Assembly (NCBI GenBank): GCA_036279475.1
Contig: DASUJB010000147.1
Location: 1,070 to 65,069, forward strand
From: Acidimicrobiales bacterium
GTDB taxonomy: Bacteria > Actinomycetota > Acidimicrobiia > Acidimicrobiales > VFJN01
Direction: 5' to 3'
Length of the DNA: 64,000 nt
Part shown: piece after piece, positions 4,805 through 42,809 of the stretch
How positions within the stretch are numbered: the first letter of the stretch is position 1
Layout: each line of letters starts with the position of its first letter
Notes under the pieces: model-generated
What the model saw: the letters and a program-made list of their open reading frames with translations, nothing else
What the model was told of the DNA's origin: nothing
The model's database searches: none
Translations under genes and position numbers: made by a program

Positions 4805-6796
4805 TCACTCCTCCGAGGGCTGGGCCTGCGCCCGCCGCCGGATCTCGTCGACCACCGCGGGATCGGCCAGGGTGGTGGTGTCGCCCAGGTCCCGGCCCTC
4901 GGCGACGTCACGCAACAGCCGTCGCATGATCTTGCCCGAGCGGGTCTTGGGCAGCTCCTCGGTGAAGACCACCAGCTTGGGTCGCGCGGTGGGCCCGATC
5001 TTCCGGGCCACGTGGCCGCGCAGCTCCTCCCCCAGCGCCGGGGTGGCATCGACGCCACCCCGCACGGTGACGAAGGCGACGATGGCCTGGCCGGTCAGCG
5101 GATCCGTGGCGCCGCAGACGGCGGACTCGGCCACGGCCGGGTGGTCGACCAGGGCCGACTCGACCTCGGTGGTGGAGATCCGATGGCCGGACACGTTCAT
5201 CACGTCGTCGACCCGGCCGAGCAGCCACAGGTAGCCCTCATCGTCCACCTTGCACCCGTCGCCGGCGAAGTAGCGGTCGCCGAACCGTGCCCAGTAGGTG
5301 TCGCGGTAGCGGTCGGGGTCGCCGTAGATGCCCCGGAGCATCGAGGGCCAGGGGCGGGTGAGCGTGAGGTAGCCGCCACCCTTCTCGACCCGGGCACCGT
5401 CGTTGTCGACCACCTCGGCAGCGATGCCGGGGAGCGGGAAGGTGGCCGACCCCGGCTTGAGGGTGGTGACGCCGGGCAGGGGCGCGATCATGATGGCGCC
5501 CGTCTCCGTCTGCCACCACGTGTCGACGATCGGGCACCGGCCCCCGCCGATGTGGGTGTGGTACCACATCCACGCCTCGGGGTTGATGGGCTCGCCCACC
5601 GATCCCAGCAGGCGGAGCTTGGACAGGTCGTGGCGCGCCGGCTCCTGCTCCCCCCACTTCATGAACGTGCGGATCGTGGTGGGGGCCGTGTACAGGATGG
5701 TGACCCCGTAGCGCTCGGCCACCTCCCACAGGCGGTCCTTGCCGGGGGTGTCCGGCGTGCCCTCGTAGATGACGCTGGTGGCACCGTTGGCCAGGGGGCC
5801 GTAGACGATGTAGCTGTGGCCCGTCACCCAGCCGATGTCCGCCGAGCACCAGTAGACGTCGGTCTCCGGCTGCAGGTCGAAGACGTACCGGTGGGTGAAG
5901 GCGACCTGGGTGAGGTAGCCACCGGTGGTGTGCATGATGCCCTTGGGCTTCGCCGTCGTGCCCGACGTGTAGAGCAGGTAGAGGAGGTCCTCGCTGTCCA
6001 TCCGCTCGGGCTCACACACCGGTGCGGCCTCGGCCATGAGGTCGTGGAACCACAGGTCGCGGCCGTCGGTCATGTCGACGGCCACGTCTGCGTCGGGGTG
6101 GCTGGACACCCGGTCGACCACCACGACGTGCTCGATCGACGGGGTGGAGGCCAGCGCCACGTCGGCCGTGGGCTTGAGCAGGTGGGCCTGGCCGCGTCGG
6201 AAGCCCCCGTCGGCGGTGACGAGCACCTTGCAGGCGGCATCGTTGATGCGGTCGACGAGCGAGTCGGCGGAGAACCCGCCGAAGACCACCGAGTGGGGGG
6301 CGCCGATCCGGGCGCAGGCCAGCATGGCCACCGGCAGCTCCGGGATCATCGGCATGTAGATGGCGACCCGGTCGCCCTTGCCGACGCCCAGCCCCTTCAG
6401 GGCGTTGGCGAAGCGCTGCACGTCGGCCAGGAGGTCGGCGTAGGTGACGGTGCGCCGGTCGCCGGGCTCCCCCTCCCAGTAGTAGGCGACACGGGCGCCG
6501 TGCCCCGCCTCGACGTGGCGGTCGAGGCAGTTGTACGCGACGTTGAGCGTGCCACCCAAGAACCACTTGGCGAACGGCAGGTCCCAGTCGAGGACGGTGT
6601 GCCAGTGGTCGTACCACGACACCAGCTCGGACGCCTGGCGTGCCCAGAAGCCCTGCCAGTCGGCTTCGGCCTCGTCGTAGATCCCCGGGTCCCTGACCAG
6701 GGCACGGGCCGCGAAGTCGGCCGGGGGCGGGAACGTGCGATCCTCGCTGAGGTAGTCCTCGATCGCCGCGCCGTCAGCCTGCGGATCGGATGGCAT
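4805..6796 (-). CDS. acs: acetyl-CoA synthetase (AMP-forming)
   Basis: The 1006-aa ORF 4805..7825 was trimmed to the ATG at 6796, giving 663 aa. The protein is Acs-like along its length (WYDHWHTVLDWDLPFAKWF, YTSGTTAKPKG, WWQTETG, PKTRSGKIMRR). Confidence 0.95.
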   Translation of the reverse strand: MPSDPQADGAAIEDYLSEDRTFPPPADFAARALVRDPGIYDEAEADWQGFWARQASELVSWYDHWHTVLDWDLPFAKWFLGGTLNVAYNCLDRHVEAGHGARVAYYWEGEPGDRRTVTYADLLADVQRFANALKGLGVGKGDRVAIYMPMIPELPVAMLACARIGAPHSVVFGGFSADSLVDRINDAACKVLVTADGGFRRGQAHLLKPTADVALASTPSIEHVVVVDRVSSHPDADVAVDMTDGRDLWFHDLMAEAAPVCEPERMDSEDLLYLLYTSGTTAKPKGIMHTTGGYLTQVAFTHRYVFDLQPETDVYWCSADIGWVTGHSYIVYGPLANGATSVIYEGTPDTPGKDRLWEVAERYGVTILYTAPTTIRTFMKWGEQEPARHDLSKLRLLGSVGEPINPEAWMWYHTHIGGGRCPIVDTWWQTETGAIMIAPLPGVTTLKPGSATFPLPGIAAEVVDNDGARVEKGGGYLTLTRPWPSMLRGIYGDPDRYRDTYWARFGDRYFAGDGCKVDDEGYLWLLGRVDDVMNVSGHRISTTEVESALVDHPAVAESAVCGATDPLTGQAIVAFVTVRGGVDATPALGEELRGHVARKIGPTARPKLVVFTEELPKTRSGKIMRRLLRDVAEGRDLGDTTTLADPAVVDEIRRRAQAQPSEE

Positions 6797-6833
6797 CGCC
6801 ACTTCCCCTCGTTCGTGGACCGACGGAGCGAGC

Positions 6834-8033
6834 CTACCCGCCCTCGCCCGGGGCCTCGCCGGGCGCCCACTCGAGCACCCTGAAGCCGCCCAGGCCCCCC
6901 CGGTCGGTGAGGGCGGCGGCCTCGAGCACCCGGCTGCGGGCGGCCAGGGCCGCCAGGTCGCCGACGTGGGCGCGCTCCTGCCACGTCGACCTCGCCTCGC
7001 CCACCAGGTCGTCCAGGCCGTGCCGTGCCAACCAGTCGGCCTGGGACCGGTCGGAGGTGGGCGGCCGGACCAGCGCGAGCTGGTCGACCGCCACCTCGCA
7101 CGTGACGTCCTGGCGGCCGAGGTCGTCGAGCGGTCCGCCGGCACGGCCGTGCGCCCGGTAGGTCCGGAGCCACTCGCCCTGCGGCCGGGTCGCCATGTCG
7201 GCCGTGGTGGTGACGTAGTCCACGACCACCACCCGACCGCCGGCTCCGGCGACGGCCAGCGCCTCGCGCAACCAGGACCGGGCCGCCTCCTGCAGGGCCA
7301 CCCGTGCCCCCTCGGCCGCCACGGGGACCAGCCGATCGAGTGCCGCGGACCGGCGGGCGTCGAGGGGCACCGCCCTCTCCGCGAGGCGGGGCCCACCACG
7401 ACCGGTGGCCAGGTCGACCCGGACCTCGTCCCAACGATCCACCGACCGCTGGGCCAGGCCGAAGGGGAGGTCGTCGAGCAGCTCGTTGGCCAGCACCACC
7501 GCCGGTCCCGCCACCCGAGGCAGGTCGGCGAGGCTGACGCACAGCGGACCGGCGGGACCGCCGGCCACCGGCGATCCGGTGTCCGGATCGACGGGCGGGA
7601 AGGCCAGCGCCGGGTCCTCCACCGGGAGGTGGCGGGCGTGCAGCCGTCGCTGGGCCACCGACCGCTCGACCAGGACGTAGCGCAGGGCGGTGGCGCAGGC
7701 GGGCGCGGCCGCCAGGACCGTCCGTGCCAGCGTGCCCGGTCCGGCCCCGGCCTCGACGACCACGTACGGCGACGGCCGGCCGAGCTGGTACCACCACTGG
7801 TCGAGCGCTCGGGCCACCACGCCACCGAAGAGGGGGCCGACCTCCGGGCTGGTCAGGAAGTCGCCCGACCGGCCGCCGGCCCGGCCACCCCTCTCGTAGA
7901 AGCCGGCGCCGGGCTGGTACAGCGCCAGCTCGAGCACCCGGTCGAAGGGCAGCGGGCCGTGCCGCCGGATCTCGGCGGCGACCGCCGCCTCCACGCCGGA
8001 GACCGGCGGGTCGGGCACGCTCACCGGCGCCAC
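6834..8033 (-). CDS. class I SAM-dependent methyltransferase, NDUFAF7/MidA (DUF185) family
   Basis: 399 aa. LYQPGAGFYERGG ... SGDFLTSPEVGPLFGG ... VVEAGAGPGTLA matches the DUF185/MidA signature. It lies 76 bp downstream of nuoN of operon 1. Confidence 0.75.
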   Translation of the reverse strand: MAPVSVPDPPVSGVEAAVAAEIRRHGPLPFDRVLELALYQPGAGFYERGGRAGGRSGDFLTSPEVGPLFGGVVARALDQWWYQLGRPSPYVVVEAGAGPGTLARTVLAAAPACATALRYVLVERSVAQRRLHARHLPVEDPALAFPPVDPDTGSPVAGGPAGPLCVSLADLPRVAGPAVVLANELLDDLPFGLAQRSVDRWDEVRVDLATGRGGPRLAERAVPLDARRSAALDRLVPVAAEGARVALQEAARSWLREALAVAGAGGRVVVVDYVTTTADMATRPQGEWLRTYRAHGRAGGPLDDLGRQDVTCEVAVDQLALVRPPTSDRSQADWLARHGLDDLVGEARSTWQERAHVGDLAALAARSRVLEAAALTDRGGLGGFRVLEWAPGEAPGEGG

Positions 8034-8109
8034 CGGCCCGTGGGGGGAGCGGTGCCGGGAGCGGGCGCCACCGGCGCGGCCCCCGCCCTCCGGTGGCGGC
8101 CCCCGGCCG

Positions 8110-9621
8110 TCAGGGCGTCACGCCCGCCACGAAGTCGGCCATGTCGCCCAGCTCGGCCGCCCACTGGGTGACGCCGAAGGCCAACGTGAGGACGGCCGTG
8201 ATGGCCAGCGCCGCCGTCAACGACACCGGCAACCGCACGGGGGTGACGTCACCGTCGGGCGCAGGGTTCATCCACATCTCCTTGGCGACGTTGGCGTAGT
8301 ACGCCAGCGACACCACGGTGTTGACCGCCATCACCACGGCCAGGGCGTACCCCCACCCCGTGTCCGACTCGACCACCGCTCGGAAGGCGACGAACTTGGC
8401 CAGCCAACCGCCCAGGGGCGGGATGCCGGCCAGGGCAAACAGGAAGAGCGACATCAGGACGGCCAGGGACGGGGCGTACTCGAACAGCCCGCCGAACGTC
8501 GAGATGTCCGCGCTGCCCGTCTTGCGAGCCACCGCCATCACCACGGTGAAGGCACCGAGGTTCATGGCGGCGTAGATGAGCAGGTAGGTCACCACCGTGC
8601 TGAGGGTCGTGCCACCGATCTGGCCCACCACCGCCATGGGGGCGAGGATGAAGCCGGCCTGGGAGATCCCCGAGTAGGCCAGCATGCGCACCAGGTTCGT
8701 CTGGCGCAGCGCCACCACGTTGCCGACCGTCATCGAGCCCGCGGCCAGGACCCACATGAGCGGCCGGACGACCTCGGCCTGCTCGGCGAAGCCGATGACG
8801 ACGAGCTGCACCAGGGCCACGAACCCCGCGGCCTTGGAGGACACCGACAGGAAGGCGGTGACGGGCGTGGGCGCGCCCTCGTACGTGTCGGGTGCCCACG
8901 TGTGGAAGGGCACCGCCGACACCTTGAAGGCGAAGCCGGCGATCACGAACACGATGGCCAGGGTGATCACGGGGACGGAGCCGCCCGCGGTGCCGAGGGC
9001 CTCGCCGATGCCGCCGAGCCGGGTGGTACCCGCCACGCCGTACAGGAGCGACATCCCGTAGAGGAGCACACCCGTGGCGAACACCCCCATCAGGTAGTAC
9101 TTGACGCCGGCCTCGTTGCCCTTCCGGTCGCGCTTGCGCCAGCCGGCCAGGAGGTACGCGGGGACCGACAGGGTCTCGAGGGCGACGAAGATCGTGACGA
9201 GGTCGCGCGCCGACGCCATCACCGTCATCCCCAGGATGGACGACAGCAGCAGGAAGTAGTACTCGCCCTCCGCGTAGTCGCCCTCGGCGACGTAGTTGGT
9301 CGACAGCAGCACCGTGACGTACCCGGCCACGAGGAACAGGGCCTTGACCACGAGGGAGAAGTCGTCGACGGCGTAGGCGCCGCCGAACATCGTCCGGTCG
9401 GCGCCGTCGGCGGCCAGCGTGAGCACGGGGACGAGCGCGCCGAGCAGCCCGATCCCTGCCAGGGAGGGGAGCGCTCCCTTCCGGTCGTCCGGGAGGAAGA
9501 GGTCGGCCACCAGCACGAGGCACAGGACGCCCACGACGACCAGCTCGGGGGCGAGGGCGTGCCAGTCGATGTCGGGACGGGCGAAGCCGTCCTGCGACGC
9601 CCGGGCGAGGAGGGCCAGCAC
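8110..9621 (-). CDS. nuoN: NADH-quinone oxidoreductase subunit N (operon 1, 11-subunit type)
   Basis: 503-aa polytopic antiporter-like protein (VPFHTWAPDTYEGAPTPVTAF). GTG start at 9621, 6 nt after the nuoM stop. Confidence 0.9.
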   Translation of the reverse strand: MLALLARASQDGFARPDIDWHALAPELVVVGVLCLVLVADLFLPDDRKGALPSLAGIGLLGALVPVLTLAADGADRTMFGGAYAVDDFSLVVKALFLVAGYVTVLLSTNYVAEGDYAEGEYYFLLLSSILGMTVMASARDLVTIFVALETLSVPAYLLAGWRKRDRKGNEAGVKYYLMGVFATGVLLYGMSLLYGVAGTTRLGGIGEALGTAGGSVPVITLAIVFVIAGFAFKVSAVPFHTWAPDTYEGAPTPVTAFLSVSSKAAGFVALVQLVVIGFAEQAEVVRPLMWVLAAGSMTVGNVVALRQTNLVRMLAYSGISQAGFILAPMAVVGQIGGTTLSTVVTYLLIYAAMNLGAFTVVMAVARKTGSADISTFGGLFEYAPSLAVLMSLFLFALAGIPPLGGWLAKFVAFRAVVESDTGWGYALAVVMAVNTVVSLAYYANVAKEMWMNPAPDGDVTPVRLPVSLTAALAITAVLTLAFGVTQWAAELGDMADFVAGVTP

Positions 9622-9627
9622 GGCGGA

Positions 9628-11175
9628 TCAGCCGCCCACCGCGGCGGCGATGGACTGGGCCACGGAGGTGAGCTGGTCGTCCCCGACGCGGAACACCAGG
9701 TTCGGGTAGACGCCGACGACGAGGATCAGCACGAGGAGCGGCACCCAGGCGATCCACTCCGGCAGCGTGACGTCAGGGATCTCCTCGTCCTCGAACTCCT
9801 CGGTGGGCGTGCCGAAGGCCGTGCGCTGGTACAGCCACAGCAGGTAGCCGGCGGCGAACACCGTGCCCAGGGCGGCGACGACCATGTAGACGCGGAACAG
9901 CTCCTCGCTGAGGCCGGCGCCCGGCTGGTAGGTCGAGAGGATCGCCGGGAACTCGCCCCAGAAGCCGGCGAGGCCCGGCAGGCCCAGCGAGGCCATGGCC
10001 GTGAAGCCCAAGATCCAGCCCAGCCGCGGCGCCTTCACGAGGATGCCCCCCAGCCGGCGGATCTCCAGCGTGTGGTAGCGCTCCTTCACGGAGCCGGCGA
10101 TGAAGAAGAGCATGCCGGTGATGAGCCCGTGGGCGACCATGCCCATCAGGGCGGCGTTGAGCCCGAAGTCGGTGAGCGTGGCCACCCCGAGCATGGTGAA
10201 GCCCATGTGGGCGACCGACGAGAAGGCGATGAGCCGCTTCATGTCCGTCTGCGCCAGGCAGGCCAGGGCTCCGTAGATGATGCCGATGACGGCCAGCAGG
10301 CCGATCCACGGAGCCCACGACACCGCGGCCTCGGGCAGGATGGGCAGGGCGACCCGGACGAACCCGTAGGTGCCGAGCTTGAGGAGCACCGCCGCCAGGA
10401 TGACCGAGCCCACGGTGGGCGCCTGGGTGTGGGCGTCGGGCAGCCAGGTGTGGAACGGGAAGATCGGCACCTTGATGCCGAACCCCATGAACATCCCGCC
10501 GAAGATCAGCAGCTCGGTGGTGTGCGAGACGTTGCCGCGGGCCACCCCCGCGGCCAGGTCGCTCATGACGAACGAATCGCTGCCCGCCGCGAAGAAGAGC
10601 GCGAGGAAGCTCACGATCATCAGGGCCGACCCGAACAGCGTGAACAGGAAGAACTTGATGGCCGCGTACTGGCGCTGCTCACCGCCCCACACGCCGATGA
10701 GGAAGTACATCGGCAACAGCACGACCTCGAAGAACACGAAGAAGAGGATGAGGTCCTGGGCCACGAACGTGCCGAGCATGCCGGTGTGCAGCACGAGCAG
10801 CAGGATGAGGAAGGCCTTGGGGTTCCGTGGCTCGGGGAAGTGGTTCCACGAGTACACGATGCACAGCGGCACGATCAGCAGCGTCAGGGCGATCAACGGG
10901 ATCGACAGGCCGTCGATCCCGATCGCGTACCGGCTGTGGATCACGTCGATCCACGACTCGTCCACCACGAACTGCAGGCGGTCCGTGGCGCCGTAGTCGA
11001 AGTCGGCGATGACGGCGGCTCCGACACCCGCCGTGCCCAACGACACGACGAGGGCCAGCCACTTGTGCGCCGACTCCAGGGTCCTGGGCACGAGCAGCAT
11101 CACCAGGGCTCCTGCCAGAGGCAGGAACACCATGAGCGACAGGCCCCAGTCGGTCAGGAACTCGTTGTTGTCCAT
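9628..11175 (-). CDS. nuoM: NADH-quinone oxidoreductase subunit M (operon 1)
   Basis: 515 aa, with FPFHTWLPDAHTQAPTVGSVILA and an NuoM-type topology. ATG start at 11175. Confidence 0.9.
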   Translation of the reverse strand: MDNNEFLTDWGLSLMVFLPLAGALVMLLVPRTLESAHKWLALVVSLGTAGVGAAVIADFDYGATDRLQFVVDESWIDVIHSRYAIGIDGLSIPLIALTLLIVPLCIVYSWNHFPEPRNPKAFLILLLVLHTGMLGTFVAQDLILFFVFFEVVLLPMYFLIGVWGGEQRQYAAIKFFLFTLFGSALMIVSFLALFFAAGSDSFVMSDLAAGVARGNVSHTTELLIFGGMFMGFGIKVPIFPFHTWLPDAHTQAPTVGSVILAAVLLKLGTYGFVRVALPILPEAAVSWAPWIGLLAVIGIIYGALACLAQTDMKRLIAFSSVAHMGFTMLGVATLTDFGLNAALMGMVAHGLITGMLFFIAGSVKERYHTLEIRRLGGILVKAPRLGWILGFTAMASLGLPGLAGFWGEFPAILSTYQPGAGLSEELFRVYMVVAALGTVFAAGYLLWLYQRTAFGTPTEEFEDEEIPDVTLPEWIAWVPLLVLILVVGVYPNLVFRVGDDQLTSVAQSIAAAVGG

Positions 11176-37152: not shown

Positions 37153-38040
37153 TCAACCTCCTGCCGGCGCCGGTGCCGGCGCGTTCCGGTGCTGGGCGGC
37201 TCGCTGGTCTCGCCGGTGCAGCATGACGCACAGCAAACCGACCATCATCCCGGAACCGGTGGTGATGAGGGCGGCGGGGAGCCGCCGCTGCCCGATGTCA
37301 CGCTCGAGGATGACCGAGATGGTCTGTGCATCCTCGTCCGCCTCGGGCGGAGGGGCGGGCTGGCCGGGCTCGGGCTCCCCCTGCTCACGGGCCGGCTTCA
37401 GTTGGACGATCGCGTAGTGGGGCGGGTGGGTCACGCGCAGGGTGTTGGTGATGCGGTTCGTGACCCGGTCGATGACGGCGTCGCTCTCCCGCTCCGGCTT
37501 CCCGCCCGTCTCGAACGCGTAGGTGAACACCCGGCTGTTGGCGTCCTCCAGCCCGGGGACGGCCCCCTCGGCCAGGAGGGCGTCCACCGCCGTCTGCGCC
37601 TCGCCCCGGGAGGCGTCCGACGCGTCCAGCAGCTTCCAGTCACCCAGGTCGTCGTCATGCTCCTCGGTGACCCGCTCCAGCTCCTCCGGCGACAGCTCGT
37701 CGATCTTCGACGGCGGCGGGAGCGAGGACGGGTCCAGCTCGTGGGCCTCGTCCAGGGTGGAGTTGTCGAGGTCGCCGTAGACGATCTCGGTGACCTCCCA
37801 GGCCGGGGCCCGCCCGGCCGGCCCCTGCCCCGGCGGGTACAGCCACCACACCGTGCCGTGGATGGTGAGCCAGGCGAAGACGCCCGTCAGCGCCACCAGG
37901 AAGCCCAGCCGGTGGGCGAGGTTGGTGGCGAGCAGCAGGTACACCGAGCCCATCAGCACCAGGACGCCGGTGGCCACGGCCAGGATGCCGCGGATCTGCG
38001 GGTCCCAGGCGATGCCGGCCAGGGTGGTGACGATGTGCAC
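37153..38040 (-). CDS. membrane protein of unknown function, last gene of the Rieske/cyt b operon
   Basis: 295 aa. The GTG at 38040 lies 1 nt after the cytochrome c stop. It has three N-terminal TM helices, an acidic ~170-aa soluble region and one C-terminal TM helix. I recognise no domain. Confidence 0.6.
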   Translation of the reverse strand: MHIVTTLAGIAWDPQIRGILAVATGVLVLMGSVYLLLATNLAHRLGFLVALTGVFAWLTIHGTVWWLYPPGQGPAGRAPAWEVTEIVYGDLDNSTLDEAHELDPSSLPPPSKIDELSPEELERVTEEHDDDLGDWKLLDASDASRGEAQTAVDALLAEGAVPGLEDANSRVFTYAFETGGKPERESDAVIDRVTNRITNTLRVTHPPHYAIVQLKPAREQGEPEPGQPAPPPEADEDAQTISVILERDIGQRRLPAALITTGSGMMVGLLCVMLHRRDQRAAQHRNAPAPAPAGG

Positions 38041-38041: not shown

Positions 38042-39283
38042 TCAGCCCTCTTCCTTCTCGAGCTGGGCCTGGATCTGGCTGACCGAGGGTGCCCCCTTGG
38101 GGTTGGGCGTCTCCGAGGCGGGCAGGGTGGCCTCGTAGCGGGCGATGGCCGCCACCATCTCCGGGGTCAGCATGCCGTCCCCCTCCACCTCCTCGGTGTT
38201 GGGGTTGTCGGCGAACCCGGGCATCCGGCCGCTGCCGATCCCGTTGTTGCCGTACGGCTCCCCGTCGATGCTGCCCTGGGACACGAAGCCCACCAGCTCC
38301 GTGTAGTCGGCGAACTGCCGGGGGATGAGGCCGCCCGTCAGGTTGGGGCCGAGGGCACCACTGCCATCGGGGAACCCGACGTACACGCCCTCGAGGGGGG
38401 CGTCCGGCGGCTGCACCACGTCCTCCCCCGTGCGGATGATCGACCAGCCCCGGGTGTGGCAACGGGCGCAGGCGAAGGCGCCACCCGAGGTCTCCAGGTT
38501 GAACAGCGTCCGGCCCACCTGGGGGTCGTCGTAGTCGAGGCCCTTGATGGCGGCGTCCATCTCGGCCTTGCTCGCTCCCTCGTCGACCAGCCCGAGCTGC
38601 TCGACCAAGCCTTCCTCGGCCTCACGCTGTGCCTGGGCCGGCGACAGCTGGATGGACTCGAGGTAGTCGACGAGGTTGCTGACCTGCTGCTCGTTGAGCG
38701 GGCCCTTGTTGACCGATGCGCCCCATCCCGCCATCGGCGAGAACGGGCGGCCGTAGTTGATGATGTACTCCACCTCGTCGCGCGAGAAGCGGAGCAGCAC
38801 CGTGTCGAGGGCGGGTGCCCGCCAGGTGACGGTGGCGACGAACTCCCCGTCAGCGTTGGTGACGGTGTACGGCGCCTGGCCGCCCGTGCCCTCGGGGCCG
38901 TGGCAGTTCTGGCACTGGGAGCCGGTGACGTACAGCTCCTCGCCCCGGCTGGCGAACACGCGCTCGAAGTTCTCGACGGCCCCCGACTGCCGGCCCGGCT
39001 CGGCCAGCCAGTAGAGCGGTAGCGCCACGGCGATGACGACGAGGAGCACGAGGGCCCACCGCAGCGTGCGGTTGAGCACGGTCGTCTCGAGCGTCTCGTC
39101 GTCGTGGTAGGGCCTCCGGTTGGGAGCGAGCTCGATCTCCGAGCCGGTCTCCGGGCGGCCGGCGCGGAGGTTTGCCACCACGTACGCCAACAACCCGAGG
39201 AGGAGCAGCACCACCAGCGTGGCGCCGATCGTCGTGACCGTGCTGGCTGCCAGCACGGCCGGCGAGATGGACAGGGGGCTCAT
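38042..39283 (-). CDS. membrane-anchored di-haem c-type cytochrome
   Basis: ORF 38042..39766 trimmed to the ATG at 39283, giving 413 aa. It overlaps the Rieske stop as ATGA. It has two N-terminal TM helices and two haem-c motifs, CQNCH and CARCH. Confidence 0.85.
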   Translation of the reverse strand: MSPLSISPAVLAASTVTTIGATLVVLLLLGLLAYVVANLRAGRPETGSEIELAPNRRPYHDDETLETTVLNRTLRWALVLLVVIAVALPLYWLAEPGRQSGAVENFERVFASRGEELYVTGSQCQNCHGPEGTGGQAPYTVTNADGEFVATVTWRAPALDTVLLRFSRDEVEYIINYGRPFSPMAGWGASVNKGPLNEQQVSNLVDYLESIQLSPAQAQREAEEGLVEQLGLVDEGASKAEMDAAIKGLDYDDPQVGRTLFNLETSGGAFACARCHTRGWSIIRTGEDVVQPPDAPLEGVYVGFPDGSGALGPNLTGGLIPRQFADYTELVGFVSQGSIDGEPYGNNGIGSGRMPGFADNPNTEEVEGDGMLTPEMVAAIARYEATLPASETPNPKGAPSVSQIQAQLEKEEG

Positions 39284-40146
39284 CAGTGGCCGCCGCCTCC
39301 AGAGACGCAGTGGGGGCCCTCGGCCTCTTGGCCGGTGGTGTTGGTACCGATCGGCGGGCCCTCGACGATGGTGCCCGTGTCGACCGTGAACTGGCCGCCG
39401 TTCACCTCCATGGCGAAGCGGTCCATGCCTCGCGGCGCCGGTCCGCCCTTCTTCTCGCCGACGCGGTTGTACTGCGAGCCGTGGCAGCCGCACTCGAACC
39501 ACTGCGAGGACAGGCACTGGGGCACCCGGCAGCCGAGGTGGGGGCACTTTTGGTACAGGGCCACCAGGCCCGCCTCCATGCCCGCCAGCTCTGGCGGGGA
39601 GTAGACGGACCTCGCCTTGTCCAGGGCGTCCGCCGGGTACCGGGTCACCCACATGCGGCCCTCCGGGTAGTAGGCGAACCCGTCGCCCTCGTCGATGGCG
39701 GCCTCGATGTCGGTGATCTTGCCGACGTTGATCTTGGTGCCGAACCCGCCCACCCCGCTGGGCCACAGGAAGGCGAGGACACCGGCACCGAAGCCGGAGA
39801 TCCCCAGGAGGAACGACACGACGATCGACCGGTTGAAGAACTGCCGCCGCGTCACCCCCAGCGTCTCCTCGTCCGGGGGCACCCAGGCGACGGGTGGCTC
39901 GCCCGCCCTCGCCGGTGCCGACGACTCGCGGCGGGCCACGACGGCGGCGCGCTCGACCTCGCGACCGCTGGCCGGCCGGTCCTCCTCCGACAGCTCGACG
40001 GGCCCGCGGTCACGGCGGGCCGTCTCGCTGGACAGGACGCCCCGGGCGGCGCCGGTGTCGCGCCGACGGGCCGAGGCCAGCAGCAGCACGCCGGCCAGGA
40101 CGACGAGGACGGGGACGGCGATGAGGATGATCGTCGTTGGACTCAT
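39283..40146 (-). CDS. Rieske [2Fe-2S] subunit of a Rieske/cytochrome b complex
   Basis: 287 aa with the cluster boxes CPHLGC and CGCHGS. It has an internal twin-arginine motif (TRRQFFNRS) before the second TM helix and an extra N-terminal TM helix. Confidence 0.9.
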   Translation of the reverse strand: MSPTTIILIAVPVLVVLAGVLLLASARRRDTGAARGVLSSETARRDRGPVELSEEDRPASGREVERAAVVARRESSAPARAGEPPVAWVPPDEETLGVTRRQFFNRSIVVSFLLGISGFGAGVLAFLWPSGVGGFGTKINVGKITDIEAAIDEGDGFAYYPEGRMWVTRYPADALDKARSVYSPPELAGMEAGLVALYQKCPHLGCRVPQCLSSQWFECGCHGSQYNRVGEKKGGPAPRGMDRFAMEVNGGQFTVDTGTIVEGPPIGTNTTGQEAEGPHCVSGGGGH

Positions 40147-40164: not shown

Positions 40165-40947
40165 TCAGAGCTCGAAGAACAGCCCGGCGTTCCAGGGGAA
40201 CACGAAGTTCTGGCCGGGACCCCGGAAGAACGAGCCGATCATCACGAGGGTCGCCCACGCCATCAGGAAGATGGTGAACAGCGAGATGGCGAACTTGCGG
40301 TCCTCGGGCTTGTTGGACGGGTTGCGATCCGTGTACGGCGTGAGGACCAGGCCGATCAGGCCGAAGCCCGGCAGCGTCACGCCCGCGACCATGGGGTGGA
40401 ACATGGTCAGCATCTCCTGCAGGCCGAGGAAGTACCACGGGGCCTTGGAGGGGTTCGGCGTCTCGTTGATGTTGGCCAGCGCCAGCAGGGGAGCGTTGAC
40501 GAACACCGAGAAGAGCAGGAGGAAGGCGGTGATGGCCAGCGCCGCCACGAACTCGATGCTGAGGAGGTGGGGCCAGACGTGGACCTTGTCCTGGGGGACC
40601 GCCTTCACGTCCTGGATCGACCCGGACTTGACCACGGTCAGGAGGCGCTGGGTGTGGCCGCCGGGACCGGTGGCCACCGGCGGGGCGGCGACGGCGGGAG
40701 CGGCCGTCGCCACGGCGGTGGCGGCGCCGCCACCGCCGGACGAGCTGGCGCCGCCGGCCTTGGCCGCCTTGGACCGCTCGAGGAGGTGGGCCGGGATGCG
40801 GCTCGCCGCCTCGCTCGTGGCGCCGGTCTCGCCCGCGCCGCCGGTCTCGCTGGCCGCCGGGGTGCCGGCGCCGCCGGCCTTGGCCGCCGCCGCCTTCTTG
40901 CGGGCCTCCTCGGCCCGCTTGCGGAGATGTTCGGGGATCTCGGTCAC
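40165..40947 (-). CDS. cytochrome b C-terminal domain protein (b6f subunit IV / PetD-like) with a ~110-aa N-terminal extension
   Basis: 260 aa, GTG start at 40947. The C-terminal 150 aa align by eye with subunit IV (VWPHLL..., NPSKAPWYFLGLQE). The N-terminus carries two IP(E/A)HL...AAKAGGA modules. Confidence 0.85.
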   Translation of the reverse strand: MTEIPEHLRKRAEEARKKAAAAKAGGAGTPAASETGGAGETGATSEAASRIPAHLLERSKAAKAGGASSSGGGGAATAVATAAPAVAAPPVATGPGGHTQRLLTVVKSGSIQDVKAVPQDKVHVWPHLLSIEFVAALAITAFLLLFSVFVNAPLLALANINETPNPSKAPWYFLGLQEMLTMFHPMVAGVTLPGFGLIGLVLTPYTDRNPSNKPEDRKFAISLFTIFLMAWATLVMIGSFFRGPGQNFVFPWNAGLFFEL

Positions 40948-40963: not shown

Positions 40964-41755
40964 CTACAGCGGCCCGGAGATGCCGCCGTCCTTGCGGACC
41001 CGCCAGAAGTGGACGGCCATGAAGATCACGATGACGAAGGGCAGCATCAGCACGTGGAGCACGTACCAGCGGAGGAGCGTGTCCGTGCCGATCTCGGCCC
41101 CGCCCAGCAGCACGAAGCGGACCTGGTTCCCGAACACGGGGGTGTACCCCATCATGTTGGTGCCCACGGTGACCGCCCACAGGGCGAGCTGGTCCCACGG
41201 CAGCAGGTAGCCGGTGAACGACAGCAGCAGGGTGAGCGTGAGGAGGACCACGCCGATCACCCAGTTGAACTCCCGCGGTGGCTTGTAGGCGCCGTGGTAG
41301 AAGACGCGTGCCATGTGCAGGAACACGGAGATCACCATCAGGTGCGCCGCCCACCTGTGCATGTTTCGCACCAGCAGCCCGAAGGTGACGGAGGTCTGCA
41401 GCGTGTAGATGTCGTCCCACGCCTGGGCAGCCGTGGGCCGGTAGAAGAACATCAGGAAGATGCCCGTGACCGTGAGCAGGATGAACAGGAAGAAGCTCAG
41501 GCCGCCCAGGCAGAGCGTGTAGCTCACCTTCACCGCGTGCCTCTTCACCTTCACCGGGTGGAGGTGGTAGAGGACGCTGTTCATGATCACGTAGGACCGG
41601 TTCCTGGGGCTGTCGTTGTAGCCCTTGCGGAAGATCGAGCCCGGACGGAAGATCGAGTTCCACGCCTGTGAGCCCTGGACCTGGTCGGGCAGGCCCTTGA
41701 CGAACTGTTGCGCCCGGTCCCTCAGCGGCGGCTTGGATTCCATGGTCTTGGCCAA
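40964..41755 (-). CDS. cytochrome b6-type protein (cytochrome b N-terminal four-helix domain)
   Basis: 263 aa. The TTG at 41755 lies 5 nt after GGAGA. Haem-b histidine pairs are present ([40 protein letters not shown]). The segment YTLCLGG...FFYRPT aligns with the b6 haem-ci cysteine segment. Confidence 0.9.
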
Positions 41756-41765: not shown

Positions 41766-42182
41766 CTATCCCAACCGCATGCCGTAGCCGTACCCGTGGC
41801 TGCTGGTGCGCTGGTGGGCGTCGCCGGTGGCGGCGGGGTCCCCCACCTTGCCGAGGATGATCACGCCCGTGGGGCACCGGTCGACGCACAGGGCGCAGCG
41901 GGTGCAGACGTCGTCGTCGATGGTGAAGATGACGTGGTCGGACGGATCGATGCCCGGCTGGTCGACGCCCAGCGCCTCGTCGACCGCGTCGGGCGACACC
42001 ATGTGGATGCACTTCCACGGGCAGATGTCGACGCAGCCCTCGCACATGATGCACTCGGACTGGTCGATGTGGATGAACTGCTTCGGCTTGACCGCCTTCG
42101 ACAGCCAGCCCGCGTCGACCTCCTGGAGGACGTAGTCGTCGCGGAACTCGGGCATCGGTGGGTTGGCATCGACCTTGGCCAT
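41766..42182 (-). CDS. soluble 2x[4Fe-4S] ferredoxin-domain protein inside the Rieske/cyt b operon
   Basis: ORF 41766..42455 trimmed to the ATG at 42182, which follows GAGGAAGGG, giving 138 aa. It has the motifs [12 protein letters not shown] and [12 protein letters not shown], and no TM helix or signal peptide. Confidence 0.8.
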
Positions 42183-42184: not shown

Positions 42185-42598
42185 CTATCCCTTCCTCACC
42201 AGGGGCCGGCCGTAGCGCGACGCGGGGATCTCGGCCGGCTTCTTCTTCCCCCGGTCGTTCCACACGGCCCACAGCGTGATGTGCAGCGTCAGCCCCACGC
42301 CGTAGATCACGACGGCGACGACGTCGGCGAGCGTCTTGTAGCTGATGGTGAGCGGCTGGTTGCCCGTCGGCTCGGCGATGAGGCGGTCGGACCGCCAGCC
42401 GAGCTGTCCCTCGGCCCATTGGAGCCACTGGTGGGGGATCACCCCGTACCACCACAGGAAGAGGAACATCGTCACCAGGGCGGCTGCCATCGCCTCGCCC
42501 CAGGACAGGGGGGCACCCGCCGGGCGGCGCCGGCCGTAGGCGAGGACACCGGCGACACCGCCGAAGCCCACAAGGATGGTGCAGATGAAGGCGACCAA
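42185..42598 (-). CDS. small three-TM membrane protein of unknown function, first gene of the Rieske/cyt b operon
   Basis: This is the frame of ORF 42185..42661. I prefer the TTG at 42598 (137 aa, GAGGAG upstream) because a Rex-like palindrome lies at 42615-42632. The GTG at 42661 is the alternative. The stop lies 2 nt before the ferredoxin ATG. Confidence 0.5.
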   Translation of the reverse strand: MVAFICTILVGFGGVAGVLAYGRRRPAGAPLSWGEAMAAALVTMFLFLWWYGVIPHQWLQWAEGQLGWRSDRLIAEPTGNQPLTISYKTLADVVAVVIYGVGLTLHITLWAVWNDRGKKKPAEIPASRYGRPLVRKG

Positions 42599-42614
42599 GG
42601 GACCTAGCGACTCC

Positions 42615-42632
42615 TCGTGAAATCGCTCACAT
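42615..42632. promoter_or_regulatory. candidate Rex operator (ROP-like palindrome) in front of the Rieske/cyt b-nuo transcription unit
   Basis: TCGTGAAATCGCTCACAT matches TTGTGAA-N4-TTCACAA at 11 of 14 specified positions by my alignment. A further TGTGAAC half-site lies on the minus strand at about 42692-42698. The region is the divergent intergenic between the operon and the cytochrome c gene. Confidence 0.4.
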
Positions 42633-42809
42633 TGAAGCAGCCGCCCATGGGGACCGGCCACCTCGGCAGGTTTAGCACGGGCCTTCCGAGGCGTTCACAT
42701 TGGCGCCGGGCACCGGGACGGGCCGCCGACCTGCACTTCCGGGAGCTTGGTGGCGACCGACGGCGCATGCGTAGAGTGGCCGATCGGAGAGCCGTCCGCG
42801 GAGGCAGCG

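What the first reader, a model, noticed from the sequence alone, without database searches (positions are those of the whole stretch)
4805..42661. 36 consecutive co-directional genes form one respiratory supercluster (Rieske/cyt b complex, complex I x2, regulators, assembly factor, acs)
Every gene from 42661 down to 4805 is on the minus strand. Most junctions are overlaps or gaps of a few nucleotides.

The only gaps over 30 bp that I found are:
- 29380-29446 (nuoG2-nuoH2)
- 20872-21028
- 18572/18614-18652
- 8034-8109
- 6797-6833

The last gene of the Rieske/cyt b operon ends 25 bp before nuoA2, with only a ribosome-binding site in between.

In the bacteria I know, quinol-oxidising bc-type complexes and complex I are encoded at separate loci. 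Physical and probably transcriptional fusion of the two, followed by a second complex I, is unusual. It suggests co-regulated stoichiometry or a functional supercomplex. Reverse or 'uphill' electron flow through bc and complex I, as in some chemolithotrophs, is one speculative reading.
Basis: partly seen in the sequence, partly recalled or inferred. Interest (0 to 1): 0.6.

Follow-up and report, generated by a model that had tools for sequence, protein, structure and literature searches.

The report
Complex III–complex I operon in Acidimicrobiales
In this soil actinobacterium and its relatives, the genes for an unusual cytochrome b6-type "complex III" run straight into the genes for complex I as what looks like one 21-gene operon, followed by separately controlled units including a second complex I that lacks its NADH-binding part. 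This is a conserved and apparently undescribed gene arrangement, but it is built from known parts.

Summary

The window is from an Acidimicrobiales MAG. The Rieske/cytochrome b → nuoA junction is conserved in all 23 species-level Acidimicrobiia loci found. It is usually 3–6 bp, with the ribosome-binding site inside the upstream gene. No conserved element is embedded before nuoA. A conserved Rex-operator-like site sits only at the head of the block. I therefore read gene 1 through nuoN1 as one 21-gene operon.

The rest is not one unit:
- Conserved promoter-like blocks precede the sigma gene and nuoA2.
- Relatives carry opposite-strand genes at nuoN1|sigma, at nuoN2|methyltransferase and before acs.
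- 87% of all genes in the window are on the minus strand anyway.

The second "complex I" has 11 subunits and no NuoE/F/G. It is followed by an NDUFAF7-type methyltransferase, and only NuoD2 keeps that enzyme's target arginine.

The cytochrome b is b6-like and belongs to the uncharacterised "APWY clade". It has a heme-ci motif, a high-potential-type Rieske protein and a highly conserved 2×[4Fe-4S] ferredoxin gene.

Verdict: a new variant of a known kind, of moderate interest. Reverse or bifurcating electron flow remains speculation.

The parts
42599..42809 (.). Divergent regulatory region between gene 1 and the cytochrome c/MenJ-like pair. It holds a Rex-operator-like inverted repeat TGTGAGCGATTTCACG (42616-42631), the RBS GAGGAG (from 42616 down), an invariant CGTGCTAAACCTGC (42666-42679, candidate -10) and a distal AATGTGAAC element (42690-42701).
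   Evidence: This is the best ROP match in the whole window (11/13; 0.14 expected per strand). It is invariant in about 15 species, and the distal site is a 12/13 ROP in 4 of them. ROP consensus from PMC5355995.
42185..42598 (-). Gene 1: 137-aa protein with 3 TM helices and no family assignment; first cistron of the block.
   Evidence: No Pfam/NCBIfam/PDB match. TM profile. Conserved at this position in all loci.
41766..42155 (-). Soluble 2x[4Fe-4S] ferredoxin (129 aa), a candidate cytoplasmic subunit of the bc complex.
   Evidence: Pfam Fer4 families. Both CxxCxxCxxxCP motifs are conserved. 90-94% identical in close relatives and 72-74% in the most distant ones.
40964..41755 (-). Cytochrome b6-like N-terminal half of a split cytochrome b, with the CxGG (LCLGG) heme-ci motif.
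   Evidence: Pfam Cytochrome_B 157 bits. NCBIfam ExtP 310 bits > 290 cutoff. Nearest solved structures are b6 of b6f (169 bits) vs bc1 cyt b (113) and actinobacterial QcrB (~90). His pairs are spaced 14 and 15 residues (sequence). LCLGG is conserved.
40165..40947 (-). Subunit-IV-like C-terminal half of cytochrome b with Qo motif APWY and a ~120-aa low-complexity N-terminal extension.
   Evidence: Pfam Cytochrom_B_C. Sequence KAPWYFLG. APWY is present in every locus that holds the gene.
39283..40146 (-). Rieske [2Fe-2S] protein with two TM helices; boxes CPHLGC and CGCHGSQY (S-Y signature).
   Evidence: Pfam Rieske. Motifs conserved. The S-Y = high-potential rule is taken from PMC4122944.
38042..39283 (-). 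Membrane-anchored dihaem cytochrome c (413 aa; CxxCH at residues 124 and 272).
   Evidence: Pfam Cytochrom_C/CBB3. Weak NCBIfam hit to actinobacterial QcrC. Motifs.
37153..38040 (-). Gene 7: 295-aa bitopic membrane protein (TM helix at each end, alpha/beta domain between), orphan family. It could be a subunit of either the bc complex or complex I.
   Evidence: More than 1,500 homologs, all 'hypothetical' where named. No Pfam/NCBIfam match. AF2 model pLDDT 70.6 with no PDB fold or sequence match.
37128..37152 (-). Gene 7|nuoA1 junction: 25 bp here because of a ~21-bp insertion containing the palindrome TGACGCGTCA. Relatives have 3-6 bp, with GGAGG inside the last codons of gene 7.
   Evidence: 17 distinct loci with a 3-6 bp gap, plus two frameshifted assemblies with the same terminal sequence. 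Flat synonymous-site conservation in the 3' end of gene 7.
21029..37127 (-). nuoA1-B-C-D-E-F-G-H-I-J-K-L-M-N: canonical 14-subunit NADH:quinone oxidoreductase. NuoD1 has HTGME (no target arginine) and the Q-site Tyr.
   Evidence: Pfam hits for all 14 subunits in canonical order. Fe-S cysteines intact. NuoD1 motif.
20872..21028 (-). nuoN1|sigma intergenic region with the conserved block GTGTGGTGAAATCGCCCACGGCG (20915-20937) and CTCCCC (within 20896-20907); a unit boundary.
   Evidence: The gap is 157-363 bp in relatives. The block is conserved in 6 genomes. An opposite-strand AbiEi_4 gene is inserted here in L038.
19642..20871 (-). ECF-type sigma-factor-like protein (regions 2 and 4) with a ~250-aa low-complexity C-terminal tail.
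   Evidence: Pfam Sigma70_r2, plus r4_2 in relatives. NCBIfam SigM-like matches, all below cutoff.
18653..19645 (-). Gene 23: 330-aa single-pass membrane protein overlapping the sigma gene by 4 bp; an anti-sigma-like partner (inferred).
   Evidence: No family match. One TM helix at residues 101-127. Always paired with the sigma gene.
18545..18652 (-). Gene 23|nuoA2 intergenic region with an invariant block at 18551-18587: TTGGCC (18576-18581), 18 nt containing the ROP-like TCGTGCAGGCGATCACTA, then TAGTCT (18552-18557), 7 nt before the GTG start, with no Shine-Dalgarno. Candidate promoter of a leaderless nuo2 mRNA.
   Evidence: Alignments of 4 and then 6 genomes. Motif scores. No SD.
8110..18544 (-). 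nuoA2-B-C-D-H-I-J-K-L-M-N: 11-subunit complex-I-like enzyme without the NuoE/F/G NADH module. NuoD2 has HRGYE (target arginine) and Trp in place of the Q-site Tyr.
   Evidence: Pfam. 30-42% identity to the nuo1 paralogs and Fe-S cysteines intact. NuoD2 passes NCBIfam NuoD NF004739. Motifs.
6834..8033 (-). MidA/NDUFAF7-family SAM-dependent methyltransferase (Methyltransf_28).
   Evidence: Pfam 96 bits. Sources name homologs MidA/NDUFAF7. It follows nuoN2 in relatives: 46-bp gap, 4-bp overlap, or two inserted genes.
4805..6802 (-). acs (acetate-CoA ligase): a conserved neighbour, not part of the respiratory unit.
   Evidence: NCBIfam 983 bits. In relatives it is separated from the methyltransferase by an opposite-strand TetR gene.
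3299..4679 (-). HAD-type phosphatase (4254-4679) and M48 peptidase (3299-4153), which extend the co-directional run to 38 genes.
   Evidence: Pfam. Same order in relatives.
42810..44879 (+). Divergently transcribed cytochrome c (42810-43568) and a geranylgeranyl-reductase-family FAD protein whose best match is the menaquinone reductase MenJ (43614-44879).
   Evidence: Pfam. NCBIfam GG-red-SF passes; MenJ 334 bits is below its 700 cutoff. The pair is conserved in nearly all loci.
58746..59420 (-). rex, the redox-sensing (NADH/NAD+) repressor, heading a run of heme-biosynthesis genes; the candidate regulator of the cluster.
   Evidence: NCBIfam Rex 340 bits > 226 cutoff. Pfam. hemA/C/D/B/L follow it.

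Best explanation
The region is a conserved Acidimicrobiales respiratory gene island. It consists of several same-direction transcription units, not one.

Unit 1 (42598 to 21029, 21 genes) encodes a menaquinol:cytochrome c oxidoreductase of the b6-like 'APWY' type: a 3-TM protein, a 2x[4Fe-4S] ferredoxin, cytochrome b6, subunit IV, a Rieske protein, a dihaem cytochrome c and a bitopic orphan protein. It runs without interruption into nuoA-N. The unit is probably transcribed from a single promoter upstream of gene 1 that carries a Rex-type operator. If so, the whole NADH-to-cytochrome c segment of the chain is made together and tuned to the NADH/NAD+ ratio. nuoA is translated as an internal cistron from a ribosome-binding site inside gene 7.

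Unit 2 is an ECF-type sigma factor with its anti-sigma-like partner.

Unit 3 is an 11-subunit complex-I-like enzyme with no NADH module and an unknown electron donor. It appears to be expressed from its own promoter as a leaderless mRNA. It is usually followed by an NDUFAF7-type methyltransferase, which probably dimethylates the HRGxE arginine of NuoD2.

acs, the HAD phosphatase and the M48 peptidase are merely neighbours.

Shown here: gene content, motifs, junction geometry, and conservation of gene order and of the non-coding blocks.
Inferred: co-transcription, Rex binding, leaderless initiation, the methylation target, and membership of the ferredoxin, gene 1 and gene 7 in either complex.
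For: - Gene content and order.
- The bc-to-nuoA linkage is present in every one of the 23 species-level Acidimicrobiia loci with enough sequence, including Iamiaceae, Ca. Poriferisodalis and a marine Acidimicrobiaceae MAG where gene 7 is only 32-35% identical.
- The gene 7 stop to nuoA start distance is 3-6 bp in 17 distinct loci, with GGAGG inside gene 7.
- Third-codon-position conservation is not raised in the last 60 codons of gene 7 (0.76-0.80 vs a mean of 0.79), so no conserved embedded promoter or operator is visible.
- The only strong Rex-operator match in 64 kb (11/13; 0.14 expected per strand) lies 34 nt upstream of gene 1. It is invariant in about 15 species, with a second full operator about 70 bp further upstream in four of them.
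- A bona fide rex gene is in the window. In Streptomyces, Rex footprints on the nuoA1 promoter (PMC5355995).
- Unit boundaries: large conserved gaps carrying invariant non-coding blocks before sigma and nuoA2 in 6 genomes; no SD and a TAnnnT box 7-8 nt before the nuoA2 start; opposite-strand insertions at nuoN1|sigma, nuoN2|methyltransferase and methyltransferase|acs.
- Methyltransferase link: adjacency to nuoN2 is conserved; the HRGxE arginine is present in NuoD2 (4/4 loci) and replaced by Thr in NuoD1 (22/22); NDUFAF7 targets that arginine (PMC3829151, PMC8042128).
Against: - There are no expression data. Co-transcription is inferred from geometry and conservation only.
- A weak or non-conserved internal promoter inside gene 7 cannot be excluded, nor can processing of the long mRNA.
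- Consensus promoter and terminator scans were uninformative at 72% GC.
- The Rex-like site deviates from the consensus at two positions and is absent from the two most distant genomes (L025, L026). The sites before nuoA2 (10/14) and sigma (9/14) are not individually significant.
- In this window the gene 7|nuoA gap is 25 bp, not 4 bp.
- The promoter reading of the nuoA2 block rests on six genomes.
- Nothing shows that the ferredoxin, gene 1 or gene 7 are physically part of either complex.
Confidence: 0.65

Rival explanations
1. One reading: all 36 genes form one co-transcribed respiratory supercluster whose products are made in fixed stoichiometry.
For: All genes are co-directional and no consensus terminator was found at any junction. 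The order bc-nuo1-sigma-gene 23-nuo2-methyltransferase is conserved and contiguous on two long contigs (+ 27 + 50, and 23 + 28).
Against: - Invariant promoter-like blocks precede sigma and nuoA2, and nuoA2 has no SD.
- The gaps are 157-363 bp and 90-125 bp.
- Relatives tolerate opposite-strand genes at three junctions.
- acs has its own TetR regulator in relatives.
- The local strand bias is 87%, so co-direction is expected.
Confidence: 0.05
2. The bc genes and nuo1 are merely adjacent. nuoA-N has its own promoter inside gene 7 and the two complexes are expressed independently, so the adjacency is inherited gene order with no functional meaning.
For: Internal promoters within long actinobacterial operons are common (own knowledge). 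The window itself has a 25-bp junction with a 10-bp palindrome. No expression data exist.
Against: - The junction is 3-6 bp with the RBS embedded in gene 7 in 17 distinct loci, and the linkage survives to 32-35% identity of gene 7.
- No synonymous-site conservation peak appears in the 3' end of gene 7. This contrasts with the invariant non-coding blocks at the other three unit heads.
- No Rex-like site precedes nuoA1, whereas Streptomyces has one there.
Confidence: 0.15
3. The fusion reflects direct functional coupling beyond co-expression. Either complex I and the bc complex form a physical supercomplex, with gene 1 and/or gene 7 as linkers. Or the APWY-type complex uses its ferredoxin subunit and heme ci to move electrons between quinol and a low-potential cytoplasmic carrier (bifurcation or reverse flow), possibly serving the NuoEFG-less enzyme.
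For: - APWY Qo motif, CxGG heme-ci motif and S-Y (high-potential) Rieske signature, all invariant.
- A MenJ-like neighbour suggests menaquinone is the quinone.
- The ferredoxin gene is among the most conserved in the block.
- The literature proposes reverse operation for the APWY clade (PMC4122944) and bifurcation to NAD(P)+ for anammox Rieske/cyt b complexes with cytoplasmic redox subunits and high-potential Rieske proteins (PMC12954380).
- An 11-subunit enzyme with an unknown donor lies in the same island.
Against: - No test of direction or interaction was possible.
- The dihaem cytochrome c resembles the actinobacterial QcrC, which wires complex III to an oxidase, consistent with ordinary forward respiration.
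- If this is the organism's only Rieske/cyt b complex (not checked), it must at least run forward.
- The ferredoxin is in unit 1 and nuo2 in unit 3, each with its own control region.
Confidence: 0.12
4. A different partition: gene 7 (and perhaps other accessory genes) is a supernumerary subunit of complex I rather than the last gene of the bc operon. The true boundary between the two enzymes' genes would then lie between the cytochrome c gene and gene 7.
For: Gene 7 is the gene translationally coupled to nuoA. In M. smegmatis, the gene immediately 5' of nuoA in the same operon (MSMEG_2064) proved to be a structural subunit of complex I (PMC10068793). Gene 7 has no similarity to any known bc subunit.
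Against: Gene 7 is just as tightly joined to the cytochrome c gene (1-bp gap). It has no similarity to MSMEG_2064-type response regulators or to any complex I subunit.
Confidence: 0.3

Closest known systems
APWY-clade Rieske/cytochrome b complexes (Kao & Hunte 2014, PMC4122944)
   Same: Split cytochrome b (b6 plus subunit IV), Qo motif APWY, a CxGG motif in b6, and a Rieske protein in the same cluster. The paper lists a split cytochrome b from one Acidimicrobidae strain (Ilumatobacter) among actinobacterial split forms assigned to the PEWY-cyt c or APWY clades; which clade Ilumatobacter falls in could not be checked.
   Different: The CxGG context is LCLGG rather than the clade's usual WCMGG. 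The accessory genes (3-TM protein, 2x[4Fe-4S] ferredoxin, bitopic orphan) and the direct fusion to nuoA-N are not described there. No member of the clade has been characterised.
Streptomyces Rex regulon: nuoA1-N1 and rex-hemACDB operons (PMC5355995)
   Same: A rex gene heading heme-biosynthesis genes, and a TGTGA-N6-TCACA-type operator in front of the operon that contains nuoA-N.
   Different: Here seven bc-complex genes lie between the operator/promoter region and nuoA. Rex binding is untested.
Actinobacterial cytochrome bcc complex QcrCAB
   Same: Likely menaquinol oxidation, a membrane-anchored dihaem cytochrome c, and a Rieske protein with extra TM helices.
   Different: The cytochrome b is split and b6-like (169 bits to b6 vs ~90 to QcrB). 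NCBIfam QcrB and QcrC models score far below cutoff. Gene order and accessory genes differ.
Anammox (Kuenenia) Rieske/cytochrome b complexes with cytoplasmic NAD(P) oxidoreductase subunits (PMC12954380)
   Same: A b6-type core plus an extra cytoplasmic redox subunit encoded in the cluster, and a high-potential Rieske protein in a (probable) menaquinone organism.
   Different: The extra subunit here is a small 2x[4Fe-4S] ferredoxin, not an FAD/NAD(P) protein. There are no multihaem HAO-like subunits. The organism is probably an aerobic heterotroph.
Geobacter ExtOPQ (NCBIfam 'ExtP/ExtQ', PMC5877670)
   Same: The cytochrome b6-like protein passes the ExtP equivalog cutoff (310 vs 290 bits). Both have a split b plus a Rieske protein.
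   Different: There are no porin-cytochrome, rhodanese or multihaem Ext genes here. The 'selenite/tellurite reduction' name should not be transferred.
11-subunit complex-I-like enzymes (cyanobacterial NDH-1, archaeal Fpo, Streptomyces nuoA2-N2; own knowledge)
   Same: The A, B, C, D, H, I, J, K, L, M, N set without NuoE/F/G, with Fe-S ligands intact.
   Different: No donor module (FpoF, NdhS/O-type) is recognisable nearby. NuoD2 has Trp at the Q-site tyrosine position. A MidA/NDUFAF7-type methyltransferase is attached.
NDUFAF7/MidA arginine methyltransferase (PMC3829151, PMC8042128)
   Same: Methyltransf_28 family, and a target HRGxE arginine present in the adjacent enzyme's 49-kDa-type subunit.
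   Different: It is bacterial and encoded next to an NADH-module-less paralog, while the canonical NuoD1 has Thr at that site. Activity is untested.

Membership tests
Rieske/cytochrome b complex, b6-type | Cytochrome b with four His haem ligands in helices B and D; b6-type spacing of 14 and 15 residues | tested here: met
   Sequence: NMH-x13-H (H133/H147) and YVLH-x14-H. Pfam Cytochrome_B covers 7-188/189. The best PDB matches are b6 chains.
Rieske/cytochrome b complex, b6-type | A separate subunit IV carrying the Qo motif | tested here: met
   Pfam Cytochrom_B_C. APWY motif in the window and in all relatives that hold the gene.
Rieske/cytochrome b complex, b6-type | Rieske [2Fe-2S] boxes CxHxGC and CxCH | tested here: met
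   CPHLGC and CGCHGSQY.
Rieske/cytochrome b complex, b6-type | Quinol:cytochrome c oxidoreductase activity and Q-cycle direction | not testable with these tools
   Requires biochemistry.
APWY clade (Kao & Hunte 2014) | Qo motif APWY plus CxGG in the b6 half; phylogenetic placement in the clade | tested here: inconclusive
   Both motifs are present and invariant, but no phylogenetic tree was built. The CxGG context is LCLGG rather than WCMGG.
Actinobacterial QcrCAB bcc complex | Unsplit QcrB of ~540 aa; NCBIfam bc1_QcrB_actin and bc1_QcrC_actin above cutoff | tested here: not met
   124 bits vs a 500 cutoff, and 22 vs 200. The cytochrome b is split.
Complex I (NuoA-N, 14 subunits) | All 14 core subunits in canonical order, with the FMN/NADH module and Fe-S ligands | tested here: met
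   Pfam hits for A-N at 37127-21029. NuoB has 4 Cys and NuoI 8 Cys, and NuoE/F cysteines are present. NuoD1 passes TIGR01962.
11-subunit complex-I-like enzyme | A, B, C, D, H, I, J, K, L, M, N present; E, F, G absent; N2 and NuoI clusters ligated | tested here: met
   The same 11-gene set is seen in L028, L038 and L039, and, despite frameshifted gene calls, in L029 and L030.
11-subunit complex-I-like enzyme | Identity of the electron donor | not testable with these tools
   No donor module was recognised in the island.
NDUFAF7/MidA methyltransferase | Methyltransf_28 domain above the Pfam cutoff | tested here: met
   96.4 bits vs 23.3. Sources name homologs MidA/NDUFAF7.
NDUFAF7/MidA methyltransferase | A substrate arginine in the HRGxE motif of a 49-kDa/NuoD subunit | tested here: met
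   NuoD2 MHRGYEK, 4/4 relatives. NuoD1 has LHTGMEK, 22/22.
NDUFAF7/MidA methyltransferase | Symmetric dimethylation of that arginine | not testable with these tools
   Needs mass spectrometry.
Rex regulon | A Rex repressor encoded in the genome | tested here: met
   NCBIfam NF003992, 340 bits vs 226.
Rex regulon | A ROP operator (TGTGAACNNNTTCACA) in the promoter region | tested here: inconclusive
   An 11/13 match at 42616-42631, the best in the window and invariant in about 15 species. Binding is untested, and the site is absent in L025/L026.
Single operon (gene 1 to nuoN1) | No room for, or sign of, a promoter or terminator at internal junctions; conserved coupling | tested here: met
Single operon (gene 1 to nuoN1) | One continuous transcript | not testable with these tools
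   No RNA data are available here.

The most novel reading that the evidence does not exclude
Acidimicrobiales have welded an uncharacterised APWY-type Rieske/cytochrome b6 complex to complex I in one operon because the two work as one machine. The complex carries a dedicated cytoplasmic 2x[4Fe-4S] ferredoxin subunit, a heme-ci motif and a high-potential-type Rieske protein, in a probable menaquinone background. In one version the two complexes form a CI-CIII supercomplex. In the other, the bc complex bifurcates quinol electrons (or runs in reverse) to or from a low-potential iron-sulfur carrier, perhaps feeding the neighbouring NuoEFG-less enzyme. That would be the first non-anammox example of a Rieske/cyt b complex with a cytoplasmic low-potential exit.
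Probability: 0.12. Interest if true: 0.8.

Novelty: new variant of a known kind. Interest (0 to 1): 0.5.

Why it matters
Complexes I and III are normally encoded at separate loci. In eight full-text searches I found no description of an operon that fuses them.

Here the fusion is conserved across Acidimicrobiia, a widespread soil, marine and symbiont class. It involves a type of Rieske/cytochrome b complex (the APWY clade) that nobody has characterised and that has been suspected of running in reverse. The arrangement yields several testable predictions:
- The ferredoxin, gene 1 and gene 7 are subunits of one of the two complexes.
- Rex controls the whole NADH-to-cytochrome c segment.
- A bacterial NDUFAF7 homolog serves a NADH-module-less complex I paralog rather than the canonical enzyme.

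If only co-expression is involved, this is a tidy example of operon-level coordination of a respiratory chain and of modest importance.

Tried and rejected
- Consensus sigma-70 promoter and intrinsic-terminator scans over 3001-43000 found nothing above the shuffled expectation. They are uninformative at 72% GC.
- Folding of the junctions gave GC-rich hairpins everywhere and was not discriminating.
- Gene 7: the AlphaFold2 model (pLDDT 70.6) had no Foldseek match in the PDB at E <= 0.001. A profile search against PDB sequences found nothing. Gene 1 likewise.
- The metagenome scan with the methyltransferase gave only 4 loci. One (L032) kept methyltransferase-acs-HAD-M48, but contig ends limited what it could show.
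- Kao & Hunte's supplementary tables are not held. I therefore could not confirm which clade their Ilumatobacter cytochrome b falls in, or whether that genome has a second cytochrome b.
- Rfam found only a tRNA outside the cluster, so no known RNA element explains the conserved non-coding blocks.
- A shared ECF-type promoter between the sigma upstream region and the nuoA2 upstream region: none is evident. I do not claim that the sigma factor drives nuo2.
- The NCBIfam name 'selenite/tellurite reduction ExtP' was rejected as a functional label.
- Recent duplication of nuo was rejected, because the paralogs are 30-42% identical.
- Misassembly was rejected, because the same order is seen in independent assemblies, including long contigs of up to 1 Mb.

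Full report
**Source and gene map**

The window is 72% G+C. By exact protein match it comes from an Acidimicrobiales metagenome-assembled genome, locus tags VFW63_…, on a 66-kb contig. Raw ORF lists are useless at this composition, so I called genes with a self-trained codon model and annotated them with Pfam and NCBIfam.

Between 4805 and 42661 there are exactly 36 genes, all on the minus strand. In transcription order they are:

| Genes | Coordinates | Identity |
|---|---|---|
| gene 1 | 42598-42185 | 3-TM orphan |
| ferredoxin | 42155-41766 | 2x[4Fe-4S] |
| cytochrome b6-like | 41755-40964 | N-terminal half of split cytochrome b |
| subunit-IV-like | 40947-40165 | C-terminal half of split cytochrome b |
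| Rieske | 40146-39283 | [2Fe-2S] protein |
| cytochrome c | 39283-38042 | membrane-anchored, dihaem |
| gene 7 | 38040-37153 | bitopic orphan |
| nuoA…N | 37127-21029 | 14 genes |
| sigma-like | 20871-19642 | ECF-type |
| gene 23 | 19645-18653 | single-pass orphan |
| nuoA,B,C,D,H,I,J,K,L,M,N | 18544-8110 | 11 genes, no E/F/G |
| methyltransferase | 8033-6834 | Methyltransf_28 |
| acs | 6802-4805 | acetate-CoA ligase |

**The observation**

There are four corrections.
- Two further minus-strand genes (HAD phosphatase, M48 peptidase) extend the run to 38.
- Gene 1 starts at the TTG at 42598, not 42661. The difference is conserved regulatory DNA.
- nuoA2 starts at 18544, as in relatives, so the gap before it is 108 bp.
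- The second nuo set is not a full complex I.

The run itself is not clearly beyond chance. 54 of the window's 62 genes lie on the minus strand, and the run contains only about six transcription units.

**Is the arrangement conserved?**

Gene 7, the gene abutting nuoA, has more than 1,500 homologs, all 'hypothetical' where a source names them. Three relatives on long contigs showed the same order from the divergent cytochrome c/FAD-protein pair through the bc genes into nuoA….

A scan of one genome per species with a gene 7 alignment returned 23 loci, all Acidimicrobiia. tblastn mapping of the window's proteins showed gene 7 followed by nuoA in every locus with sequence there. That includes Iamiaceae, Ca. 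Poriferisodalis and a marine Acidimicrobiaceae MAG, where gene 7 is only 32-35% identical.

The stop-to-start distance is 3-6 bp in 17 distinct loci, with GGAGG inside the last codons of gene 7. Two apparent exceptions are frameshifted assemblies that end in the same sequence. The window's 25 bp comes from a ~21-bp insertion.

With gene 23 as anchor, five relatives show nuoN1, a gap, sigma, gene 23, a gap, then nuoA2…N2. On two contigs this is contiguous with the bc-nuo1 locus. With the methyltransferase as anchor, it follows nuoN2 in three relatives: a 46-bp gap, a 4-bp overlap, or two inserted genes. The arrangement is therefore neither unique to this genome nor an assembly artefact.

**Where the units begin and end**

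Consensus promoter and terminator scans were empty and uninformative, so I relied on comparative evidence.

*Head of the block.* The 211-bp region upstream of gene 1 is highly conserved in about 15 species. It holds a distal AATGTGAAC element, an invariant CGTGCTAAACCTGC, and the invariant inverted repeat TGTGAGCGATTTCACG followed directly by GAGGAG and the TTG start. That repeat is the best match in the whole window to the Rex operator TGTGAACNNNTTCACA (11/13; 0.14 expected per strand). In four genomes the distal element is itself a 12/13 operator.

A bona fide rex gene lies at 58746-59420 (NCBIfam 340 bits), heading a run of heme-biosynthesis genes. That is the arrangement known from Streptomyces, where Rex footprints on the nuoA1, cyd, atp and rex-hem promoters (PMC5355995).

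*The gene 7|nuoA junction.* There is no Rex-like site before nuoA1. Third-codon-position conservation along gene 7 is flat (0.76-0.80 in the last 60 codons against a mean of 0.79). No conserved regulatory element is hidden there.

*The other two heads.* The gaps before sigma (157-363 bp) and before nuoA2 (90-125 bp) each contain a block that is invariant in six genomes, amid flanks that cannot be aligned.

The nuoA2 block reads TTGGCC-N18-TAG(G/T)CT, 7-8 nt before the GTG start, with no Shine-Dalgarno sequence. That is what a promoter producing a leaderless or nearly leaderless mRNA looks like. Its spacer holds a 10/14 Rex-like repeat, and the sigma block a 9/14 one. These are suggestive only.

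*Insertions.* Relatives tolerate opposite-strand genes at nuoN1|sigma (AbiEi_4 family), at nuoN2|methyltransferase and, in all three cases examined, a TetR gene between the methyltransferase and acs.

My reading is therefore one 21-gene operon (gene 1 to nuoN1), followed by sigma/gene 23, then nuo2 (usually with the methyltransferase), then acs and the rest as separate units.

**What the bc complex is**

- The cytochrome b is split and b6-like. Its nearest solved structures are b6 of b6f (169 bits), well ahead of bc1 cytochrome b (113) and actinobacterial QcrB (~90).
- The haem-ligand histidines are spaced 14 and 15 residues apart, as I recall for b6 (sequence).
- The subunit-IV-like protein carries the Qo motif APWY, and the b6 half carries a CxGG motif (LCLGG).
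- Kao & Hunte (PMC4122944) define an 'APWY clade' found in several phyla. They list one Acidimicrobidae strain among the actinobacteria with split cytochrome b, note the CxGG (possible heme ci) motif, state that no member has been characterised, and suggest reverse operation.
- The Rieske protein reads CGCHGSQY, the S-Y signature those authors link to potentials above 260 mV.
- All of these motifs, and both cluster motifs of the ferredoxin, are invariant across the relatives.
- The ferredoxin is one of the most conserved genes of the block: 90-94% in close relatives and 72-74% in the most distant.
- The NCBIfam name 'ExtP' (310 bits, cutoff 290) only reflects similarity to the Geobacter ExtOPQ split-b module (PMC5877670).
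- The divergent FAD protein is a geranylgeranyl-reductase-family member whose best match is the menaquinone reductase MenJ, which fits menaquinone use.
- Anammox Rieske/cyt b complexes with cytoplasmic NAD(P) oxidoreductase subunits and high-potential Rieske proteins are the nearest conceptual analogue (PMC12954380).
- Genes 1 and 7 remain orphans.
- In M. smegmatis, the gene 5' of nuoA in the operon is a complex I subunit (PMC10068793). Gene 7 may therefore belong to complex I.

**The two nuo sets and the methyltransferase**

The paralogs are 30-42% identical and both keep their Fe-S ligands, so this is an old pair and not a recent duplication.

NuoD1 reads LHTGMEK…RMDY in 22/22 loci. NuoD2 reads MHRGYEK…RIDW in 4/4 loci. 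The arginine of HRGxE is the residue that NDUFAF7 dimethylates. The modification occurs in Paracoccus complex I, and T. thermophilus naturally has Thr there (PMC3829151, PMC8042128).

The MidA/NDUFAF7-family gene sits after nuoN2. Its likely substrate is therefore NuoD2, not the canonical enzyme. The Trp at the quinone-site tyrosine position of NuoD2 is unexplained, as is the donor of the 11-subunit enzyme.

**Verdict**

The fusion of a b6-type Rieske/cytochrome b gene set to nuoA-N is real, ancient within Acidimicrobiia and most likely transcriptional. Eight full-text literature searches found no description of it (for example).

The 'supercluster' as a single unit is not supported, and the unbroken 36-gene run is partly a peculiarity of this genome: three genes that relatives carry in or beside this region are absent here (TetR, GNAT, cupredoxin).

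Everything about mechanism beyond co-expression remains inference, including any supercomplex, reverse or bifurcating flow, and the role of the ferredoxin. I rate it a new variant of a known kind, with interest about 0.5.

Noticed in passing
window 34142-35470 (nuoD1) and 15795-16967 (nuoD2); L002-L026, L028-L030, L035: NuoD1 has Thr in the HRGxE motif and keeps the quinone-site Tyr (LHTGMEK…RMDY). NuoD2 keeps the Arg but has Trp at the Tyr position (MHRGYEK…RIDW) and lacks a ~25-residue segment present in NuoD1. The pattern is fixed in 22 and 4 relatives respectively. The Trp substitution is unexplained.
   Followed up: partly
window 37128-37152: This genome alone has a ~21-bp insertion at the gene 7|nuoA1 junction. 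It contains the perfect 10-bp palindrome TGACGCGTCA and a new GGAAGGG ribosome-binding site. Relatives have 3-6 bp here.
   Followed up: partly
window 52581-59485: A Streptomyces-like cluster: rex, a sirohaem-synthase-like gene, hemA, hemC, cobA/hemD, a HAD hydrolase, hemB and hemL. Upstream of rex lie a half Rex operator TTGTGAG (within 59468-59485) and a TAGATT box (59453-59458), suggesting autoregulation.
   Followed up: partly
L035, L036, L037 (around locus positions 11160-14860); L002-L004 (around 2400-3100); compare window 6803-6833, 4680-4804, 44880-44935: Relatives carry an opposite-strand TetR gene between the methyltransferase and acs, a GNAT acetyltransferase after acs, and a cupredoxin gene between lgt and the MenJ-like gene. 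All three are absent from this window, which is why its co-directional run is unbroken.
   Followed up: partly
L038 7551-8519; L036 8125-10004: An AbiEi_4-family gene on the opposite strand is inserted between nuoN1 and the sigma gene in one relative. In another, an unknown opposite-strand gene plus a TetR-like gene are inserted between nuoN2 and the methyltransferase.
   Followed up: no
window 40587-40947 (subunit IV N-terminus), 19642-20400 (sigma C-terminus), ~23560-23760 (NuoM1), ~13020-13215 (NuoL2): Several membrane or regulatory proteins carry long low-complexity Ala/Gly/Glu/Pro-rich extensions or insertions: ~120 aa on subunit IV, ~250 aa on the sigma-like protein, ~65 aa inside NuoM1 and ~65 aa inside NuoL2. 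Their function is unknown, and codon scores are lower there.
   Followed up: no
window 18545-18552, 20872-20890, 4154-4170: The first cistrons of the inferred units (nuoA2, sigma, M48 peptidase) lack a Shine-Dalgarno sequence, whereas most internal cistrons have one. This is consistent with the leaderless mRNAs that are common in Actinobacteria.
   Followed up: partly
window 2591-2672 (-): A tRNA gene (Rfam, 53.9 bits) lies just beyond the YajQ/DUF520 gene. The 94-aa ORF my gene caller placed at 2199-2483 (+) has no support.
   Followed up: no
window 46007-49898: Pentose-phosphate genes (zwf, a 6-phosphogluconate-dehydrogenase-like gene and a weak PGI-like gene) lie immediately upstream of lgt and the respiratory island. 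The zwf-lgt neighbourhood is conserved in relatives (L002-L004).
   Followed up: no
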